Shown: one piece after another, positions 530 through 25,458 of the stretch | How the letters are laid out: each line of letters opens with the position of its first letter | Position numbering within the stretch: the stretch's first letter is position 1 | IMG/VR virus record: IMGVR_UViG_3300017585_000052 | DNA from: a virus | Taxonomy: Duplodnaviria; Heunggongvirae; Uroviricota; Caudoviricetes | Direction: 5' to 3' (one strand) | Length of the DNA: 25,658 nt | Translations under genes and position numbers: made by a program | The notes under the pieces: generated by a model | Database searches by the model: none | What the model was told of the DNA's origin: nothing | The model's input: the letters and a program-made list of their open reading frames with translations, nothing else

Positions 530-3500
530 ATGGCGAGAAATAAAGTTAGTCTATATTACATATACAAGGCTACAAGCTCAGAGATTATCAATAATAACTT
601 TTAGATTAACACAACATTTAAGCAAGCCAAGTTATCAGGTAAGATAATTGCCATTGGTGACAATTAGGTCTTGAAGTTTATTCGTACACTAAAAGACCAA
701 CAAGATGTTTCCTCTTAGATTAAAGAATTGAAATCTAAAAAGAAACAGCTACTTCAAGAGAATCCTTGCAAACCAAAGGAAATCCAAGCAACGCAGAATT
801 AGATAAATGATTTAATGTTTGTCCCTGACCTTGTGTCAGTAAAGACAGATACCACAAAGAAAGATTATAAAGCTATCTGTAAAAATCATTTCTCGATTAC
901 AATAGAGATAAACAAACACACATATTCTATTAGATATAAGCGCTTATGCGCTGGTGCTGGACAACTTCGTAGAAATTCTGCATTATTTGTAAATGAAGAA
1001 TTATATGATATGCTCGAACAGATAATGCTATGTGGCTTGACAAGACATAAGATAGGCAAGATTAACTTAGCTAAGTTCTCTGCTTATTATGCGTTGTATA
1101 CGTCAGCCACTAATGTTGTTACTACGCCGAGAATATGTGTGGTTCCAGATTTTGAATACGACTTAAAAGATTAGGTTGTTGATTGGATTTTTGAGCGTGA
1201 TGACGGAACGCCAGATATTGAAAGGCGTAGTATTGATTTCAATATTAACGCATTTGACGGGTCTGGTATGGTTTCACCAGCTATGGCAAGAATATGGCAA
1301 GAGGATTTACATTTAGATTATTTGCCAAGCAGTTTTATACTCCGCGCCCCGTGGCATAAGGGGCTGGTTAGTGTCTTTGATTTCCACAAGTTTGCAAGAG
1401 AAGTAGCGCACACTGATACAATCACGGATATTTATGGAACTGAGTATAATATAGATAACATTGATGTAATATGTACAGCAAGTCAATTTAAGATGCACAA
1501 GTATTATGTCAATTATCAAGAGTTTGAATATAACTTCCATAAATACGGGCATACATTTGGTGTCACGAGGGTAAATAAGAAATACAGCGATTTTGCTACT
1601 CCATTAAATTATCAATACATCCAGAGCAACAATTTCACGGAAGAAACGATTAAGCAATTAGCAGAACCTACGGCAAGATGGTTGGACGGTTTACTTTCAT
1701 GTGACCCAATATACGCCACAATACTAATGACTGGCGAACAACAAGACAAAACATTTGACGAGCTGGAATCTTCTTTAGACTCACCTATTGCCAAAGGACT
1801 TTTATATAATCAAGATTTGTTAAAAGATGATTATGTTAAAAGCAAAATTAAGCAATAGGCGCAAAAGAAGATAGACCAAGCTAAGATTGGTAAATTATAT
1901 GTCGAAGGTAGTTACGATTTTCAATTACCAGACTTATACGCTATGGCTGAATGGGCTTTTAAGCTACCAGTTAAAGGATTATTGCCAGCAAAAACATTAT
2001 GGAACAGACGGTGGGTTGAAAAAGGTTCTGAAAGAGTAAGTTGCCAGAGAAGTCCTTTGGTTGCGCCAGCAGAAAATCAAGTATTAAATGTTTATTCTGA
2101 TGATAAATGTATAGAGTGGTTCAAATACATTCAATGGGGCAATATTCTTAACGTCTGGGACTTGACTGCGATTTCCGAATCCGACTCAGATTATGATGGT
2201 GATATAATACTTACCAGTGATAATCCAGTTTTGATGGGAGCTATCAATCCCGAACTGCCAGTGATTACTTATGAAAAGAAGAAAGCAAAAGCCCAAAGAT
2301 TGAATATGGAATCTTTTGCTAATTGGGACGTTAAATCTTTTGACAGTCCTATTGGTGGAATAACAAATCTCGCAAGCAACATTTATGCAATGCTGCCGTT
2401 ATACAACCCCGACTCTAAGGAATATGCCGAATTAGATAAGAGAATACGGCTCCTACGTCGAAGTTAGGGGGACGCCATTAAATTATCAGTGGCCTCTTAA
2501 TAGCAATATTTCGAGTAAAACTCTGTGAACCTATAAATATAGGGTGTCATTCGTAAGAATGGCTAACATGGGAATCTAAAGCAAAAGCTATGATAATCAT
2601 GTGCCAAGCCGTGAAAACGGAAGGTGCAACGACTAACCGGAAGAAATTCCGAAAGGGTAAATGCGAAATTCATTTGCCCGTAGTGCAGAGCAACCCATTG
2701 GGTTGAAGATATAGTCTAATCCCCTAAGAAATATCGGGAAACCGAGGGTAGTAAATGAGATAAAACCAAGGGCATTACTTATGTTCCACCCCCTAAGAAA
2801 TGGTCTAAGAAACAAAAATACATACAAATCCCAGAGGGTGCAACACAAGAACAAATAGCAACCATTAACAAGATGAATGAGCAAATTAAATTCGACAATA
2901 ATATCTGCTGCGATAAAAAGGCTTACTTCTTTGGTTACGTTTATCCTCAAAAAATGGTTGAGTATAAAGAGCATAAGAAAGTAGCAGATACCGAATGTAG
3001 AATTAAATTTGATATGGGTGTTAATGACTTAATTAAAATAGTGGATAAGAGTCCAGAGCAAAAGAAATTCCTAAGAGATTATTATAAATATTCTCCATTA
3101 TTTAACTCCAAATGCACAATGAATATCCTTGCTAAATATATTGAAGATATGGATTTCAGGTATCGTAGGATGCCAAAGACTGGAACATTTGACTTTAGAT
3201 GTCTAATGTCTTGCGATGTGGCAGACCTCGACAAGAGAAAACTGAATCAGTTTGTAAGACTTATTAAAAAATATATTCAGCTCACAGGAAGAACAAGTGT
3301 TAATATAGAATACGCCTCAAAGTATCTAACAGAGGATGAAAAGGACGATATGCGTAAGGTGTTATTTGACGCTCTTTACGAAGATTTCAAAAATGACGCT
3401 TTAGATTTGTCTGATAGTTGTGCAGATGCAGTAAACTATATTGTTGGAGCTTTCTACGCAACAGGAATGAAAGCACAAAAGTCACTATTGTGGACTTCAT

Positions 3501-6432: not shown

Positions 6433-6539
6433 TAGACGCATACAGCAATTCGTCAGACAGATAGTCAAATGGTAAAGACAAAAGATTGTCCATCTTTTAA
6501 TGCGAGTTCGATTCTCGCTCCGTCAAAATACCGCGTCTA
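6433..6539 (+). ncRNA. ACAGCAA clamp element, copy 1 (encloses degenerate tRNA-Asp)
   Basis: TAGACGC 6433-6439 / GCGTCTA 6533-6539 stem; ACAGCAA 6442-6448. Confidence 0.6.
6455..6526 (+). tRNA. degenerate tRNA-Asp(GTC), no encoded CCA
   Basis: AAAGA-TTGTCCA-TCTTT anticodon arm, GCGAG-TTCGATT-CTCGC T arm, GTC/GAC D stem; two mismatches in the acceptor stem. Confidence 0.7.
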
Positions 6540-6600
6540 ATTTTTATAAAGACATTTCCGACAAAATGTTGTTTAACATAATATGTACCTCTTTCTGACT

Positions 6601-6773
6601 TAGATGCGCACAGCAACCTAACCTAACGAAAATTTTAGATTATGTAATTTTGATAACAGACTTGCTGATGCTGTGTCACGACACAGTTTTCAGGAGCGTA
6701 TCTTGAACCGCTAAGTTCGACATTTCTTGGTTCGTATAACCGTATTGGTTGTATGTAAATGCAAACGCATCTA
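6601..6773 (+). ncRNA. ACAGCAA clamp element, copy 2 (multi-hairpin insert)
   Basis: TAGATGCG 6601-6608 / CGCATCTA 6766-6773 stem; ACAGCAA 6610-6616. Confidence 0.55.
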
Positions 6774-6814
6774 CTTTTAATTGATAAACACCTCATAGGT
6801 TTTAATATAAGTCT

Positions 6815-6874
6815 TAGGCGGTCACAGCAACATAAGTTTTTATAGCGTGGTATTATAAAAATCAACACCGTCTA
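6815..6874 (+). ncRNA. ACAGCAA clamp element, copy 3 (single hairpin insert)
   Basis: TAGGCGGT 6815-6822 / ACCGTCTA 6867-6874 stem; ACAGCAA 6824-6830; inner TTTTTATA/TATAAAAA hairpin. Confidence 0.6.
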
Positions 6875-6879
6875 TACGT

Positions 6880-6953
6880 AGGTTCTTAGTATAATGGTAG
6901 TATATCTGTCTCCAAAACAGAGGGTAAGCGTCCGACTCGTTTAGAACCTGCCA
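6880..6953 (+). tRNA. tRNA-Trp(CCA)
   Basis: AGGTTCT/AGAACCT acceptor, TCTGT-CTCCAAA-ACAGA anticodon arm, encoded CCA. Confidence 0.9.
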
Positions 6954-6983
6954 TTCGTTTCATTATTCATTGTTAATCAGTTT

Positions 6984-7049
6984 TAGGCAGTTACAGCAGC
7001 TTAATCAAGTATTTGACTGTTAATCAAACTCACTAAAAAAAACTGTCTA
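6984..7049 (+). ncRNA. ACAGCA clamp element, copy 4 (encloses an Asn anticodon stem-loop)
   Basis: TAGGCAGTT 6984-6992 / AACTGTCTA 7041-7049 stem; ACAGCAG 6993-6999; inner TTTGA-CTGTTAA-TCAAA. Confidence 0.6.
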
Positions 7050-7056
7050 TTTGTTT

Positions 7057-7130
7057 CGAGAATGTAGTATAACAGTAATACACTCGCTTTGGGAGCGAGA
7101 ATAGTGGGGCAGCACCAACATTTTCGACCA
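7057..7130 (+). tRNA. tRNA-Pro(TGG)
   Basis: CGAGAAT/ATTTTCG acceptor, CTCGC-TTTGGGA-GCGAG anticodon arm, encoded CCA; atypical T arm. Confidence 0.85.
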
Positions 7131-7538: not shown

Positions 7539-7804
7539 TAGCTGAACGCAAACGAGCGTTGCCGCGATAAAACATTGGGTGGGTCAAGACGCGCCAATGT
7601 GGAGCAGCTATCAGGGGTTTGGTGGATTCCACGACTTGAATAGGTCTAAAAGACCGAAAGAAAACACCACTTTATTTTCAAGGTGAGCCACTACCGTAAG
7701 TGCGGAGCTAACAAAGTGGTTTTGACAGTTCCATCCAAACACTATTGGTAAATACTGTCATATATGAATATTCAACTTAATTGCTTTAGATTGGAGTCGA
7801 TACT

Positions 7805-8269: not shown

Positions 8270-8330
8270 ACCAACATAGTTTATATAGTAAAACATTGAT
8301 AACAGAGTGCAAATCTCTGTGTTGGTTCCA
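8270..8330 (+). ncRNA. tRNA-like RNA lacking an anticodon arm, CCA-ended (61 nt)
   Basis: ACCAACA/TGTTGGT acceptor, GTTT/AAAC D stem, 8-nt linker ATTGATAA, CAGAG-TGCAAAT-CTCTG T arm, T discriminator + CCA. Confidence 0.65.
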
Positions 8331-10796: not shown

Positions 10797-11903
10797 ATGC
10801 CGAGAGGTAGACCGCGCAAAACAACCACTACGACCACTACTAAGACCACAAAGGTGGCTAAAAAGCAAGAACCAGAACAGCCTAAGATTGTGTGTATAGG
10901 ATGCGGTTGTGCAACACAGACTAACTTCTATATGGCTCGTGATGAGCATAGGAGCTTTTTTAGAAAAGTACCTTATTGTAAAGACTGTGTAAACAAAATA
11001 TTTAAGAATTATCTAAGACTAAAGGGCGGGAATTATAATCTCGCCCTTTATTATACTTGTAGAAAAATAGATTTGCCGTATATACATTCTGCATATACTG
11101 GCGCAGTAGATAACGTCAATAATCCCAATTCTAATATCAAAGGCATGGATAACCTAATGTCTGCATACATGAAGAATATGTCATTTGCAGACGCTAATGG
11201 TTGGGGTGCTACATTTGATGAAAGCGTTGGAGAGGATTAGATTGACGGCCTTTCTTCGTTTGAAGATATTGTCAAAGTCAGAAGAAAAGTTGGTCTAAAA
11301 ACAAGCAGCGATAATGATTTTGACGTTATCGAAATGGACGCAGATGAACTCATGCGTAAGTGGGGAAGATTTGATAATGATGACCTTGCCTATCTTGAAT
11401 CTGAGTACATGGATTGGGAAGAACAGTTGAATGGCATTGTTGATAAGTATGTTGATATAATGGTTAAACAAGTATGCTTAACATTAAATGAGATTAGACA
11501 TGACCGTGAATCAGGTCAACCTGTCGAAAAGAAAGTCCAGAGCCTGAGAAATCTAATAAAGGATTCTGGGTTGTCTGATTTACAGAAGAATGATGCTGTT
11601 GAACAAGGAACTGGAATGACTATTCGAGATATTGAATTTAAGCGTCCAGTTAAAACTGTTGACCCAGATTTTGAAGATGTCGATGGTATGCGTCTTGTTA
11701 TAGACGCAATACTTGGTGGCACTTCAAGAGCAGTTGGAAAAGAAAATGAGTTTACTGAGAGATTTGACGAAGAATATAGTAAATATACTATTGATATTAT
11801 AGAGGACTTAAAGGTTCAATACGGATTAGATAATAAGAAAGCTGAAATTACATAGGTTGAAGAACCAGTAAATTCTGAAGGCGGTGAGCCTAAGAATGAG
11901 TAA
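10797..11903 (+). CDS. Zn-finger protein, candidate terminase small subunit, 368 aa, 2 TAG
   Basis: ORFs 10797-11240 and 11334-11855 are in frame via TAGs 11238 and 11853 and end at TAA 11903, overlapping the TerL start. CIGC...YCKDC motifs; directly upstream of TerL. Confidence 0.65.
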
Positions 11904-20167: not shown

Positions 20168-20952
20168 GTGAATACGTCTTTTCAAGATATATACCATCTA
20201 TTCCTAAATTCTATTCAGGATTATAATATTAGGAATATGTTCAATAATAATGTTGCGGTAGCAGAAGATATGTTATCTACATTCTTAGCAAGAAGTATTC
20301 CTAAATTTTATAATTGTGTTAAAGATATAAGAACCACCGATATTTCTTCTGGTGAGTTCCCTTGTGAACTTGATTTAGAGGAAAAAAATATTCTCGCGGA
20401 ACTTATGGTACTCGCATGGCTTGATTGGGTCATTAGTGATATTCGTCAAATGAATATTCATCTTAATGATAATGATTGACGCAAGATATACTGTATTCTT
20501 GCATAAGTCCTACGTACAAGTGATTGTATGTTGAAACCGCTTGAAATGCTGGAAGTCCCTTAGAGGCTATAACTAAAACAGAAAGATGAAATATGCTTAA
20601 ATGGACAGTTAAAAAATATAGCATTGGGTAATCAGCAGGGAAGTCCCGAAAAGGGGAACCCTCAACGACCATTGGTTGAAATACCAGTAGGAGAAATCCG
20701 AAGTGGGCGGCTCTCTTAATTATTATATTTGAAAATGATATTTTCATATTAAGAGATGAAGATATGGTCTGTGCTTACGCGAGAGCGTAAGATTAACATA
20801 AACAGTTTAAGCATTACAGCGAAGAATCCAATCTAAAGCAAAAATCCGAGTATTCCGATAGGCTACGCGAAAAGGTTAGTCAAGATATGACAAATTATGG
20901 TTTGTATAGAACCGAATTTTCTAAGTGGGCGGCGGGTGATTATGGTGTCTAA
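20168..20952 (+). CDS. putative head-tail connector (neck) protein, 151 aa; join(20168..20476,20806..20952)
   Basis: Splicing joins LNDND|FKHYSEESNLK... and continues to TAA 20952, which overlaps the next gene; position in the neck module. Confidence 0.7.
20477..20805 (+). ncRNA. group I intron 4 (329 nt) in the neck gene
   Basis: AATGAT| ... AAACAG| ends. P7 GACCA 20667 / TGGTC 20765 in CAACGACCA and AAGATATGGTCT contexts; GAAATGCTGGAA and AATCAGCAGG P/Q-like elements. P1/P10 were not clearly resolved by eye. Confidence 0.85.
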
Positions 20953-23882: not shown

Positions 23883-25458
23883 ATGGCAAACGCAATACCT
23901 AAAAAGTTTTCAATGCAGCAATGCTTTGAAATCTTGCTGAGAAAGCCCTCAGACAAGTCTATTATTGGTTATATGCAGGACTGCAAGACTACCGGACTGG
24001 AAAACACTATCGAACTGGTTTACCCAACCGGCGAACTAATACGCCGCCGCCTATATTCGTGAGAATATCTGAATAACGCTTTTAACTGCGGGAACATCCT
24101 TAGAGCGTAATATACTAAATTATTATAGCGATATAATAGTGGCTTAACTAATCATTAAGGTACAGTAACAAGTATTGCGATTGGAAAATCCGCAACTAAG
24201 ATTCTCTTTTAGGTGTGAGAGAATAAAGCTCAACGACTATCCTGAGAAGCTGTGTAAATCAGCAATAGGAGTAGGGCGCAAGTGCGTGGGTGAGAATCCC
24301 TTAAATCGAAATGGAGCGCATCTGTTAAGTACAGATGGTGATATAGTCTCAACTTCTGTGGAGACACAGAGACATTTATATGTGGTAAACTTTACGAGTT
24401 TATTAAGACGATATTGGGCGCAGGCAATGTCTATGTAGGGGTGACTTTCTTGGTAGCGGCCCCCTCTGTTTGCAAAAAGCAGAGAAAATTCTTCTAAGTG
24501 CTGGAACTCCTAACGGCTAATCTAACTACAACGTAACTGGCGACAGTAAGCGTGAACGTGACGAAAGTAGAAAAAATAGATTAGAGGGCGCATGGTTAAA
24601 TCCTAAACGCTGCATAACGGACAATCAGCAAGTAAGATTACTTTTTAGATTAAAGTAATAAACTTCAACGACTATCCCGACAGGGAGTAGGAACAAGCGT
24701 TCCGAAATGGAGAATACCCAATAATGGGTAGTGATATAGTCTAATCTCATAAGTAATTATGAGCTGTTTACTTTTCGACATGGTAAACGGGTAGTGATTA
24801 GCGAACACTATCGAATTTTAATGGCGCATTTGGTCACAGCAAACGTGCTACTCTGAATGTCGAGTCTGCAACTTACAGCACTGCTATTATGGCTCTGCAA
24901 AATGGTACTGAACTGGCTGTTGGTTCTCACGAGATTACTGCCTTTGACGTTATCGAAGTTACCTCCGATATGGTTACTAACGGCGTGACTCTGAACCATA
25001 CTCCTGTCGGTGCTACTGGTTCTGAGATTGGCTTTGCTTATCTCGTAAATGAGGATGGCTCTTTTGGCACTGAGTTCACTCAGGATGCTACCGCGAGTGC
25101 GACTACTTTTACCTACGCTGATGGCGCGATTAAGTTCGGCACTGATGCTATTGCTGTTGGTGACAGAGTTGCTTGTGCGTACACCTATAAGAGTGCTACC
25201 ACCGCAGAGCGCATTACTCTCGAAACTGACACTATTCCGGGCATGGCTCTTGTTACTTGCTTTGGCGTGGCTAAGGATGTTTGCTCTGAGCAGACTTATC
25301 CTTGCCAGCTTGAAGGCATTGTTCAGATTGACGGTAACTGGAACCTCGACCTGTCGGCTGATGGCGACCCCGTTGTTCAGTCTGTGAACATGGAGTTTGT
25401 CCGTAGCTGCTTGGAGAAGCGTCTGTACACCTTTACTGTGTACACCGAGGACGAATAA
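23883..25458 (+). CDS. major tail tube protein, 269 aa; join(23883..24032,24417..24442,24825..25458)
   Basis: Splicing gives ...LVYPTG|GAGNVYVGV|AFGHSKRATLNVESAT...; biased codons typical of high expression; terminator downstream. Confidence 0.8.
24033..24416 (+). ncRNA. group I intron 5 (384 nt) in the tail tube gene
   Basis: P7 GACTA 24235 / TAGTC 24344. IGS CGCC-GCCG 24042-24049 pairs with 3' exon GGCG and 5' exon CGGC. Ends in ATATTG. Confidence 0.85.
24443..24824 (+). ncRNA. group I intron 6 (382 nt) in the tail tube gene
   Basis: GGGGT| ... TAATGG| ends. IGS GCG-GCCCC 24456-24463 (P1 with U.G; P10 with CGC). P7 GACTA 24670 / TAGTC 24737; AAGTGCTGGAA and AATCAGCAAG P/Q elements. Confidence 0.9.

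What the first reader, a model, noticed from the sequence alone, without database searches (positions are those of the whole stretch)
6433..7049. Repeated unnamed 'ACAGCA clamp' RNA element that brackets tRNA-like cargo
Seen: four elements interleaved with tRNAs share one architecture: a 5' stem strand starting TAG(A/G)(C/T), then ACAGCA(A/G), a variable insert, an A-rich linker, and the complementary 3' strand ending TCTA. The stems differ in sequence yet stay paired (TAGACGC/GCGTCTA, TAGATGCG/CGCATCTA, TAGGCGGT/ACCGTCTA, TAGGCAGTT/AACTGTCTA), which looks like covariation around a fixed unpaired heptamer. The cargo differs: a full degenerate tRNA-Asp, a ~150-nt multi-hairpin, an AT hairpin with a GC-rich loop, and a bare Asn anticodon arm. 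Inference: a modular phage RNA scaffold or processing signal that displays anticodon loops. Possible roles are decoys for host anticodon nucleases, sponges for tRNA-modifying enzymes or synthetases, or ligands that mis-set Firmicute T-box riboswitches. I cannot match it to a family I know.
Basis: partly seen in the sequence, partly recalled or inferred. Interest (0 to 1): 0.85.

Follow-up and report, generated by a model that had tools for sequence, protein, structure and literature searches.

The report
Phage Y-RNA-like "handle" RNA family
The four repeats are real small structured RNAs that share one docking "handle" and carry different tRNA pieces. They belong to a widespread, apparently undescribed phage RNA family that travels with a gene for a protein shaped like the RNA-surveillance protein Ro60.

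Summary
Four + strand elements (6433-6539, 6601-6773, 6815-6874, 6984-7049) share one layout. A 7-9 bp closing stem (N-AGRY.../...RUCU-N) is followed, exactly 9 nt from the 5' end, by unpaired ACAGCAR. Then come a variable cargo, an A-rich linker and the 3' strand. The 5' pattern occurs 4 times against 0.09 expected, and no Rfam family matches.

About 16 element types occur in the tRNA arrays of eight related phage records. The stems covary (5 of 9 pairs change on both sides; 91% paired against 35-45% in slid controls).

Every near-complete relative that has the elements also encodes a DUF2828+vWA protein, and its AlphaFold model matches Ro60/TROVE structures. In 75 of 80 further DUF2828 loci the same handle lies on the gene's strand (185 stem-closed copies against 17 on the opposite strand). 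It also follows this gene in mycobacteriophage Rumpelstiltskin and in E. coli phage momo.

Cargos are rich in T-loops and anticodon-shaped loops; the tRNA-Asn loop is the most common. The handle matches that of Dictyostelium Class I RNAs (9 nt + ACAGCAA).

Best reading: these are Y-RNA-like partners of a phage Ro60-like protein. Binding and function are inferred, not shown. This scan had already noted the same pairing on other phage DNA.

The parts
6433..6539 (+). Handle RNA copy 1. 5' strand 6433-6439, ACAGCAA 6442-6448, tRNA-Asp(GUC)-like cargo 6455-6526, A-rich linker, 3' strand 6533-6539.
   Evidence: It has the same clamp and the same 3' flank (AAUUUUUA) as the 85-nt element of relatives (G001 90326-90240), whose cargo keeps only the T arm.
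6601..6773 (+). Handle RNA copy 2. 8-bp clamp, ACAGCAA 6610-6616, ~150-nt multi-hairpin cargo.
   Evidence: The fold has a z-score of -2.75, and the clamp forms in the minimum-free-energy structure.
6781..6808 (+). Sigma-70-like promoter match (TTGATA-16-TAATAT) ending 6 nt before copy 3.
   Evidence: This is a consensus match only, and the number of such matches is not above shuffles. It would start transcription at or beside the first base of the handle.
6815..6874 (+). Handle RNA copy 3. 8-bp clamp with one G-U, ACAGCAA 6824-6830, AU hairpin cargo. tRNA-Trp starts 5 nt downstream.
   Evidence: Covariance model R1 scores it 45.6 bits, E 1.7e-7 (it was part of the seed).
6984..7049 (+). Handle RNA copy 4. 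9-bp clamp, ACAGCAG 6993-6999, cargo hairpin 7012-7028 with loop CUGUUAA (the tRNA-Asn anticodon loop). A tRNA-Pro-like gene starts 8 nt downstream.
   Evidence: In the orthologues G001 143737-143672 and G003 139704-139640 both stems covary and the loop is invariant.

Best explanation
The four elements are small non-coding RNAs of one family. Their constant part is a docking handle: the 5' and 3' ends pair into a 7-9 bp stem (N-AGRY.../...RUCU-N), and an unpaired ACAGCAR begins 9 nt from the 5' end, opposite an A-rich 3' linker. The handle closes off a freely exchangeable cargo. Cargos include whole or permuted tRNA bodies, T arms, anticodon stem-loops and plain hairpins.

I read the elements as Y-RNA-like partners of a phage-encoded Ro60-like ring protein of the DUF2828 + vWA/MIDAS family. 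On this reading the protein grips the handle, and the cargo presents a tRNA-shaped surface to a third party, as cellular Y RNAs tether Ro60 to other factors.

The most likely arena is the conflict over tRNA integrity during infection. The cargo could act as bait for host tRNA-cutting or tRNA-binding defence proteins, or it could bring damaged tRNA to the repair enzymes encoded beside the gene.

Shown here: the RNA family, its covariation, its strand-specific linkage to the gene, the protein's predicted Ro60-like fold, and the tRNA-part bias of the cargo. Inferred: physical binding, the RNA ends, and the biological role.
For: (1) The motif is far above chance in the window: 4 against 0.09 expected.

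(2) About 16 element types occur in eight related records, all in tRNA arrays on the tRNA strand. The clamp covaries: 5 of 9 pairs change on both sides, 90.7% of cells pair against 35-45% when the partner is slid, and 0 of 500 shuffles reach the observed score.

(3) A 499-aa DUF2828+DUF7788/vWA protein lies 2-4 kb from the second array, on the same strand. It is present in all six relatives that have handles and are 68-100% complete. It is absent from the two more distant relatives, which have no handles.

(4) Its AlphaFold model (pLDDT 90) has Ro60/TROVE structures as its 13 best PDB matches. These cover frog, human, Deinococcus Rsr and Thermus phage phiLo, with E 3e-9 to 3e-5 over the full length. 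The MIDAS residues D310, S312 and S314 are invariant.

(5) In 80 further DUF2828 loci from IMG/VR, ACAGCAR occurs 509 times on the gene's strand and 118 times opposite. Stem-closed copies number 185 against 17, with 21 and 6 in reversed-sequence controls. 75 of 80 loci have at least one copy. Upstream copies lie a median of 106 nt before the gene.

(6) The handle directly follows the homologous gene in Mycobacterium phage Rumpelstiltskin (annotated 'Ro-like RNA binding protein') and in E. coli phage momo.

(7) Some cargos have the V-T-AS-D order that defines YrlA Y RNAs. Examples are G001 11162-11287, which scores 37.7 bits against Rfam YrlA, L166 4533-4654 and L167 6359-6483.

(8) Cargos are enriched for T-loops (29 against 0.5) and anticodon-shaped loops (64 against 14).

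(9) A preprint reports that the Ro60-like gp130 of the Felix O1-type phage Bas63 counters the Ppl defence system, and it guesses that neighbouring 'tRNA genes' are Y RNAs (PMC11482910). I did not check whether gp130 belongs to the DUF2828 family.
Against: No experiment or structure shows that the protein binds the handle. Linkage and fold similarity are the whole case.

The DUF2828 gene could not be checked in this window's own genome, because the record held is only 39 kb (34% complete). In relatives, the array that corresponds to this window lies about 80 kb from the gene, not beside it.

The handle lacks the published Ro-binding motifs (GGUCCGA; GNCGAAN0-1G). Pfam TROVE does not match the protein. 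Rfam YrlA stays below its gathering score of 69 bits: 17.7 bits in the window and 37.7 at best in a relative.

The loci compared are partly related to each other by descent, and many come from one metagenome. The counts therefore overstate the number of independent events.

The one protein shown to bind a Dictyostelium Class I RNA directly is an RRM protein, Rnp1A (PMC7919456). A different kind of partner is therefore possible.
Confidence: 0.68

Rival explanations
1. The elements are protein-independent processing or stability cassettes of the tRNA operon. The clamp pairs the two ends of each spacer RNA, mimics an acceptor stem and guides host RNase P, RNase Z or RNase E cuts. These cuts free the neighbouring tRNAs. 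ACAGCAA plus the AU-rich stretch after it would be a leader signal.
For: Elements abut tRNAs tightly. G001 90326 starts directly after the CCA of tRNA-Arg. Many elements end 4-8 nt before the next tRNA, followed by UUUAUAU. Base -1 is mostly U and base 73 mostly A, as in good RNase P substrates. ACAGCAAUUUAUAU also directly precedes two ordinary tRNAs in G001.
Against: In most other phages the handle sits about 100 nt upstream of the DUF2828 gene, and this linkage is strand-specific. Dictyostelium Class I RNAs use the same handle. A bare processing stem would not need an invariant heptamer at a fixed 9-nt offset. The tRNA arrays of the two DUF2828-less relatives have no handles.
Confidence: 0.15
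2. The elements are decaying tRNA pseudogenes, left over from duplication within the array. The clamp would be an old acceptor stem and N-A-CAGC-AA the remains of positions 8-15.
For: Copy 1 and several relatives contain tRNA bodies. Read as positions 1-7 and 66-72, the clamp is 7 bp, flanked by a discriminator-like A. Some copies have a T arm right before the 3' strand (G001 90326-90240).
Against: The heptamer and the stem ends are invariant while everything else has diverged completely. The stem covaries. tRNA parts occur in three different topologies relative to the clamp, including permuted ones. The family spans phages of Actinobacteria, Proteobacteria and gut bacteria.
Confidence: 0.05
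3. The element is a small self-cleaving ribozyme that trims tRNA ends, like the theta (HDV-like) ribozymes of recoded gut phages.
For: Theta ribozymes sit next to tRNAs in such phages (PMC10879173). One relative's element begins directly at a tRNA 3' end.
Against: The topology is wrong. In HDV-like ribozymes the 5'-most strand pairs internally within a nested double pseudoknot, whereas here it pairs with the 3' end. There is no Rfam ribozyme hit even at E up to 10. The core between the strands is not conserved at all.
Confidence: 0.03
4. The elements are DNA-level features: inverted repeats of a miniature mobile element, or protein-binding half-sites.
For: The arms are inverted repeats that bracket variable cargo.
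Against: The arms differ between copies yet stay complementary, with G-U pairs that are mismatches in DNA. The asymmetric ACAGCAA is strand-specific, always on the tRNA or gene strand. There are no target-site duplications and no transposase.
Confidence: 0.02

Closest known systems
Ro60/Rsr with Y RNAs, especially bacterial and mycobacteriophage YrlA/YrlB (Chen et al. 2014, PMC4201824; Rfam RF02553)
   Same: The RNA ends pair into a basal stem, with a conserved single-stranded motif on the 5' side. The other end is variable, and in some members it is a tRNA mimic in the order V-T-AS-D. The RNAs are encoded near, and on the strand of, a ring+vWA protein with the Ro60 fold. Several different RNAs share one handle, as YrlA and YrlB do.
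   Different: The protein belongs to Pfam DUF2828/DUF7788, not TROVE. The motif is ACAGCAA at a fixed 9-nt offset, not GNCGAAN0-1G or GGUCCGA. Rfam YrlA does not reach its threshold. There are many more copies per genome, they are often scattered through tRNA arrays, and the cargo reaches down to a bare anticodon hairpin. Chen et al. searched only genomes annotated with TROVE.
Class I RNAs of dictyostelid social amoebae (Aspegren 2004; Avesson 2011; Kjellin 2021, PMC7919456; search pattern GTTGRCCTTACAGCAA ... GTCAACTG in PMC5054030)
   Same: A short stem joins the 5' and 3' ends. ACAGCAA is unpaired and starts exactly 9 nt from the 5' end. The remainder is highly variable. The typical length is about 60 nt (copies 3 and 4 are 60 and 66 nt). 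There are many paralogues per genome.
   Different: Class I RNAs are eukaryotic and have their own upstream promoter element (DUSE). Their stem is GUUGAC/GUCAAC with a 3' CUGU, not AGAC/GUCU. The first four bases of their 11-nt motif (CCUU) are not shared. They were reported as unique to Dictyostelia, and no Ro-like partner is known for them.
Bas63 gp130, a Ro60-like protein of a Felix O1-type coliphage (PhageMaP preprint, PMC11482910)
   Same: It is a phage protein with a Ro60-like fold, located directly upstream of the tRNA array. The authors suggest that some annotated tRNA genes are Y RNAs. I found handle RNAs in the equivalent place in the related phage momo.
   Different: The preprint does not identify or describe the RNAs. 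Its functional result, countering the Ppl defence, concerns the protein. I did not check Bas63 itself.
Theta (minimal HDV-like) ribozymes next to tRNAs in recoded gut phages (PMC10879173)
   Same: They are small structured RNAs interleaved with tRNAs in TAG-recoded gut phages.
   Different: They have a different fold (a nested double pseudoknot with a catalytic C). None of their motifs is present here.

Membership tests
Y RNA / YrlA (Rfam RF02553) | The 5' and 3' ends pair into a basal stem that closes the RNA | tested here: met
   Stems of 7-9 bp form in all four minimum-free-energy folds. Covariation supports them.
Y RNA / YrlA (Rfam RF02553) | Ro-binding sequence on the 5' strand (GGUCCGA in animals; GNCGAAN0-1G in bacteria) | tested here: not met
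   The conserved motif in that position is ACAGCAR. Rare variants such as ACUGCGAA come closer but do not fit.
Y RNA / YrlA (Rfam RF02553) | tRNA-like domain in the order V, T, AS, D | tested here: not met
   None of the four window copies has it; copy 1 holds a tRNA body in normal order. Family members elsewhere do have it: G001 11162-11287, L166 4533-4654 and L167 6359-6483.
Y RNA / YrlA (Rfam RF02553) | Score at or above Rfam's gathering score (69 bits) | tested here: not met
   17.7 bits in the window and 37.7 bits for the best relative. Sub-threshold YrlA hits also ring in 13 of 14 control genomes.
Y RNA / YrlA (Rfam RF02553) | Encoded within about 4 kb of, and on the same strand as, a Ro60 orthologue | tested here: inconclusive
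   Met for second-array copies in relatives and for 75 of 80 DUF2828 loci. The gene is not in the 39-kb record that holds this window. The matching array of relatives lies far from the gene.
Y RNA / YrlA (Rfam RF02553) | Physical binding to the Ro60-type protein | not testable with these tools
Dictyostelid Class I RNA | Short terminal stem plus a conserved unpaired 11-nt motif (CCUUACAGCAA) next to the 5' strand | tested here: inconclusive
   The last 7 of the 11 nt are identical, and the 9-nt offset from the 5' end is the same. The first 4 nt and the stem sequence differ.
Dictyostelid Class I RNA | DUSE promoter about 60 nt upstream; invariant 5' G and 3' CUGU | tested here: not met
   The context is phage, with sigma-70-like promoter matches, and the ends are UAG.../...UCUA.
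Theta / HDV-like ribozyme | Nested double pseudoknot in which the 5'-most strand (P1) pairs internally; catalytic C in J4/2 | tested here: not met
   Here the 5'-most strand pairs with the 3' end. There is no HDV-type Rfam hit at E up to 10.
tRNA (RF00005), for the cargo of copy 1 | Cloverleaf with an intact 7-bp acceptor stem and a usable 3' end | tested here: inconclusive
   The score of 53.9 bits is above the gathering score. However, pairs 1:72 (A:A) and 5:68 (A:C) are mismatched, there is no CCA, and the body is enclosed by the clamp.
Ro60 / TROVE protein, for the linked DUF2828 protein of relatives | Helical-repeat ring followed by a vWA domain with a MIDAS motif | tested here: met
   The 13 best Foldseek matches are all Ro60/TROVE over the full length. 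The DxSxS motif is invariant. By sequence, Pfam TROVE does not match.

The most novel reading that the evidence does not exclude
The ACAGCAA handle marks a cross-kingdom class of ribonucleoproteins built on DUF2828 (Ro60-like) proteins. Dictyostelium Class I RNAs would be the eukaryotic branch. In phages the handle would serve as a plug-in socket, letting the virus display a changing set of tRNA parts as baits. The parts include anticodon loops of tRNA-Asn, -Ser, -Lys, -Ile and -Phe, T arms and whole tRNA bodies. The baits would trap or misdirect host tRNA-targeting immunity.
Probability: 0.25. Interest if true: 0.9.

Novelty: new variant of a known kind. Interest (0 to 1): 0.8.

Why it matters
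If the pairing holds, Ro/Y-RNA particles are much more common in viruses than the TROVE annotation suggests. I found 691 GenBank phage records and at least 483 IMG/VR contigs that carry the protein. Phages would then diversify the RNA half of the particle by swapping tRNA-derived cargo.

This gives a concrete, testable partner for a large protein family of unknown function. It also offers a candidate mechanism for a reported anti-defence phenotype (Bas63 gp130 against Ppl). And it gives a first lead on the Dictyostelium Class I RNAs, whose biochemical role is unknown and which were thought to be confined to social amoebae.

Members occur in E. coli, Listeria, Staphylococcus and Mycobacterium phages, so ordinary bench tests are possible. 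On the practical side, these elements are being annotated as odd tRNAs or left unannotated in phage genomes.

Tried and rejected
1. Link to the amber codon. The stems begin with UAG and end with CUA in a phage that reads TAG as a sense codon, so I asked whether they relate to the missing suppressor tRNA. I rejected this because relatives have AAG.../...CUU and CAG... at these positions, and pair 1 covaries U-A with A-U.

2. ACAGCAA as two glutamine codons (CAG CAA) that might sense tRNA-Gln. I rejected this because of the variants CCAGCCA, ACCGCAA and ACUGCGAA.

3. Theta or other ribozymes. The topology does not fit and there is no Rfam hit.

4. Canonical Ro60. Pfam TROVE is absent from five of the phage records (the window's own and four relatives). 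The Ro-like protein emerged only through Pfam DUF2828 plus a fold search.

5. Searches for relatives with the exonuclease and the HU protein found nothing. The major capsid protein worked.

6. An exact-pattern scan for orthologues of copy 4 in IMG/VR returned only the two contigs already known.

8. The covariance model built from short elements (R1) misses most long-cargo copies and the handles of distant clades.

9. The supplements of Chen et al. 2014 are not held. I therefore could not list their 22 phages. Their text says the search covered TROVE-annotated genomes, with phage ET08 as an example.

10. I did not establish whether Dictyostelium encodes a DUF2828 protein. The atlas search was uninformative on this.
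Full report
**Observation**

The region 6433-7049 lies in a phage tRNA array. ARAGORN finds tRNA-Gln, -Asp, -Trp, -Tyr, -Asn and -Ser. Rfam adds a weak tRNA at 7058-7126 and a drum RNA at 7562-7672.

Each opens with U-AGRY, has ACAGCAR exactly 9 nt from its first base, and ends with the complementary strand RUCU-A after an A-rich linker.

The 5' pattern AGRYNNNNACAGCAR occurs four times, against 0.09 expected from shuffles. It occurs nowhere else in the 39-kb record. The clamp forms in every minimum-free-energy fold; the heptamer is left single-stranded in copies 1-3 but is paired in the predicted fold of copy 4. No Rfam family matches, even at E up to 10. The only overlap is a 17.7-bit YrlA hit at 6475-6578, far below the gathering score of 69.

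**Relatives and covariation**

The window comes from an IMG/VR record that is 34% complete. Earlier notes of this scan say the phage reads TAG as glutamine.

Its major capsid protein finds relatives at 73-78% identity and two more distant ones at 52%. Searching the whole related records with the 5' pattern alone gave 11 hits against 5 for the control pattern. Most of the 11 had a downstream strand that closed a 7-9 bp stem ending in UCUA.

A fuller catalogue gives about 16 element types in eight records. All lie in tRNA arrays, on the tRNA strand. An alignment of 12 short elements shows the helix clearly. 90.7% of cells pair, against 35-45% when the partner is slid. Five of nine pairs change on both sides, including the outermost pair (U-A six times, A-U five times). 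None of 500 shuffles reaches the observed covariation score.

Pairs 2, 3 and 5 (A-U, G-C, C-G) are invariant and pair 4 is A-U or G-U, so the stem end as well as the heptamer is under sequence constraint. Rare heptamer variants exist: CCAGCAA, CCAGCCA, ACCGCAA and ACUGCGAA.

**Cargo**

The cargo is exchangeable.
- Copy 4 has orthologues in two relatives. There both the clamp and the inner hairpin stem covary, while the loop CUGUUAA (the tRNA-Asn anticodon loop) stays fixed.
- Copy 1 shares its clamp and its 3' flank with an 85-nt element of relatives. That element keeps a T arm but has a 13-nt loop where copy 1 has the Asp anticodon loop. Anticodon display is therefore not conserved in that lineage.
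- Other types hold a normal-order tRNA body with a broken acceptor stem.
- One type (G001 11162-11287) holds a permuted body in the order anticodon-like arm, T arm, closed acceptor-like hairpin, D arm. This is the V-T-AS-D order that defines YrlA Y RNAs. Rfam YrlA scores it 37.7 bits (definition in PMC4201824).
- In G004 (90606-90494), G001 and a Logan contig (L083, about 6690-6810) a CCA-ended tRNA body carries the handle, capped by a 1-4 nt loop, where the anticodon loop should be. This is a circular permutation of the same design.

**The linked protein**

Pfam TROVE is absent from these phages. But next to the second tRNA array of the relatives lies a 499-aa protein with DUF2828, DUF7788 and weak vWA matches. 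It sits beside a Thg1-like gene and an SPFH/flotillin gene. In another contig it sits beside Thg1-like and RNA-ligase genes, and in others beside PhoH or a kinase/HD protein.

The gene is present in all six relatives that carry handles. It is absent from the two 52%-identity relatives, which have tRNAs but no handles.

An AlphaFold model built on 32 homologues has a mean pLDDT of 90. Its 13 best PDB matches are all Ro60/TROVE proteins aligned over the whole length: frog, human, Deinococcus Rsr and Thermus phage phiLo, with E from 3e-9 to 3e-5. Isolated vWA domains follow. The MIDAS residues are invariant.

**Test of the linkage**

I fetched the 80 best of 483 IMG/VR loci that encode this protein, at 42-99% identity.
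- On the gene's strand ACAGCAR occurs 509 times, against 118 on the other strand.
- Copies with a closing stem of at least 7 bp at the 8-9 nt offset number 185 against 17. Reversed-sequence controls give 21 and 6.
- 75 of 80 loci have at least one such copy.
- 117 copies lie upstream of the gene (median 106 nt before it) and 61 downstream.
- There are 79 distinct handles, with the consensus (A)AGAC..N.. ACAGCAA ... GUCU(U).

The loci are partly related to one another and many come from one metagenome, so these are not 80 independent events.

Among GenBank phages, 691 records hold a homologue. In Mycobacterium phage Rumpelstiltskin the gene is annotated 'Ro-like RNA binding protein'. Three handle RNAs follow it at once, and one has a V-T-AS-D cargo. 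In E. coli phage momo (Felixounavirus) three handle RNAs lie in the tRNA array just downstream of the gene. Rfam does not recognise any of them.

**Family-wide cargo bias**

In 169 unique elements, hairpins with 7-nt loops shaped like anticodon loops (Y-U-NNN-R-N) number 64, against 14 in shuffled cargo. T-loops number 29 against 0.5. The single most common loop is CUGUUAA (15 elements), followed by loops with the anticodons GCU, UUU, GAU and GAA. Even so, many cargos are plain hairpins.

**Comparison with the literature**

- Chen et al. 2014 found YrlA RNAs beside TROVE-annotated Ro60 genes in 254 bacteria and 22 phages, with the motif GNCGAAN0-1G. The present protein family and handle fall outside that search.
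- A 2024 preprint reports that Bas63 gp130 resembles Ro60, counters the Ppl defence system and sits upstream of tRNA genes 'possibly' including Y RNAs. It does not describe the RNAs.
The published search pattern is GTTGRCCTTACAGCAA ... GTCAACTG (PMC5054030). That is a terminal stem with ACAGCAA beginning 9 nt from the 5' end, as here. Kjellin et al. describe a short stem, an 11-nt unpaired motif and a variable remainder, and they report the class as unique to Dictyostelia (PMC7919456).
- I found no paper that describes the phage handle RNAs.
- This scan had already reported the same protein-RNA pairing on other phage genomes. I reached the protein independently. I took the Class I lead from those notes.

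**Mechanism**

The best-supported reading is that these are Y-RNA-like partners of a Ro60-like protein. The handle would be the docking site, and the cargo an adaptor or bait shaped like parts of tRNA.

The gene neighbourhood (Thg1-like 5'-end repair enzyme, RNA ligase, kinase/phosphatase, PhoH) and the Ppl result point to the conflict over RNA integrity during infection. Whether the particle baits host tRNA-targeting factors or helps repair cannot be decided here.

The main rival is a protein-independent processing or stability cassette of the tRNA operon. It explains the tight abutment to tRNAs. It does not explain the strand-specific linkage to the gene in loci where the handle sits just upstream of it, nor the invariant heptamer shared with amoebal RNAs.

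**Limits**

- The DUF2828 gene could not be checked in this window's own genome. An earlier first-reader note mentions a 'Y RNA locus' beside the SLT and Thg1-like genes about 57 kb beyond the window, which matches the layout of the relatives.
- Pattern-plus-stem scans have a real false-positive rate, as the controls show.

Noticed in passing
window 7562-7672 (+): A drum RNA (Rfam RF02958, 65.9 bits, gathering score 43) lies in the same tRNA array, right after tRNA-Asn. Its function is unknown, like that of other phage tRNA-array RNAs.
   Followed up: no
L046 3781-4344 (-) = G001 143781-144344: A full-length ROOL RNA (309 bits) lies in the third tRNA array of a relative, directly beside two handle RNAs (G001 143737-143672 and 143520-143455).
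   Followed up: no
L037 10494-10606 (-) = G004 90494-90606; also L083 about 6690-6810 and G001 about 89,100-89,200 (-): A CCA-ended tRNA body with good acceptor, D and T arms has its anticodon loop replaced by the handle hairpin plus ACAGCAA (ACAGCUA in G001) and a further hairpin. Rfam tRNA scores it 50.4 bits with a 50-nt insertion. The handle stem covaries among the three copies. Whether it can be charged with an amino acid is unknown.
   Followed up: partly
window 8270-8327 (+): A tRNA-like sequence (Rfam tRNA 34.3 bits) is too short to hold an anticodon arm. It has no handle.
   Followed up: no
window 2489-2738, 20488-20791, 24012-24371, 24433-24763 (+): Four group I intron matches at or above the Rfam gathering score lie in a 25-kb stretch of structural and packaging genes.
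   Followed up: no
L043 (G001 87,600-92,500, - strand) and L039 10800-12450: Nearly every tRNA in these arrays is preceded by UUAUAU or UUUAUAU. Twice a small hairpin UGCUG-GAAAGA-CAGCA followed by AUUUAUAU leads directly into a tRNA (Arg-ACG, Ile-GAU), so ACAGCAA also occurs paired in ordinary tRNA leaders.
   Followed up: no
L083 855-5107; L085 80-4152; L043 11042-15629: The Ro60-like gene sits in a varying RNA-maintenance neighbourhood: PhoH, a KTI12/AAA_33+HD protein, Thg1-like, an RNA ligase (PF09414), and in G001 an SPFH/flotillin protein.
   Followed up: partly
window 1-25658: Earlier notes say this phage reads TAG as glutamine, yet ARAGORN finds no tRNA with a CUA anticodon in the window. 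The handle RNAs do not supply one.
   Followed up: partly
L166 4533-4654 (Mycobacterium phage Rumpelstiltskin): The V arm of this mycobacteriophage handle RNA carries the same CUGUUAA loop as window copy 4, although the host phylum is very different. It is the commonest cargo loop in the family (15 of 169 unique elements).
   Followed up: partly
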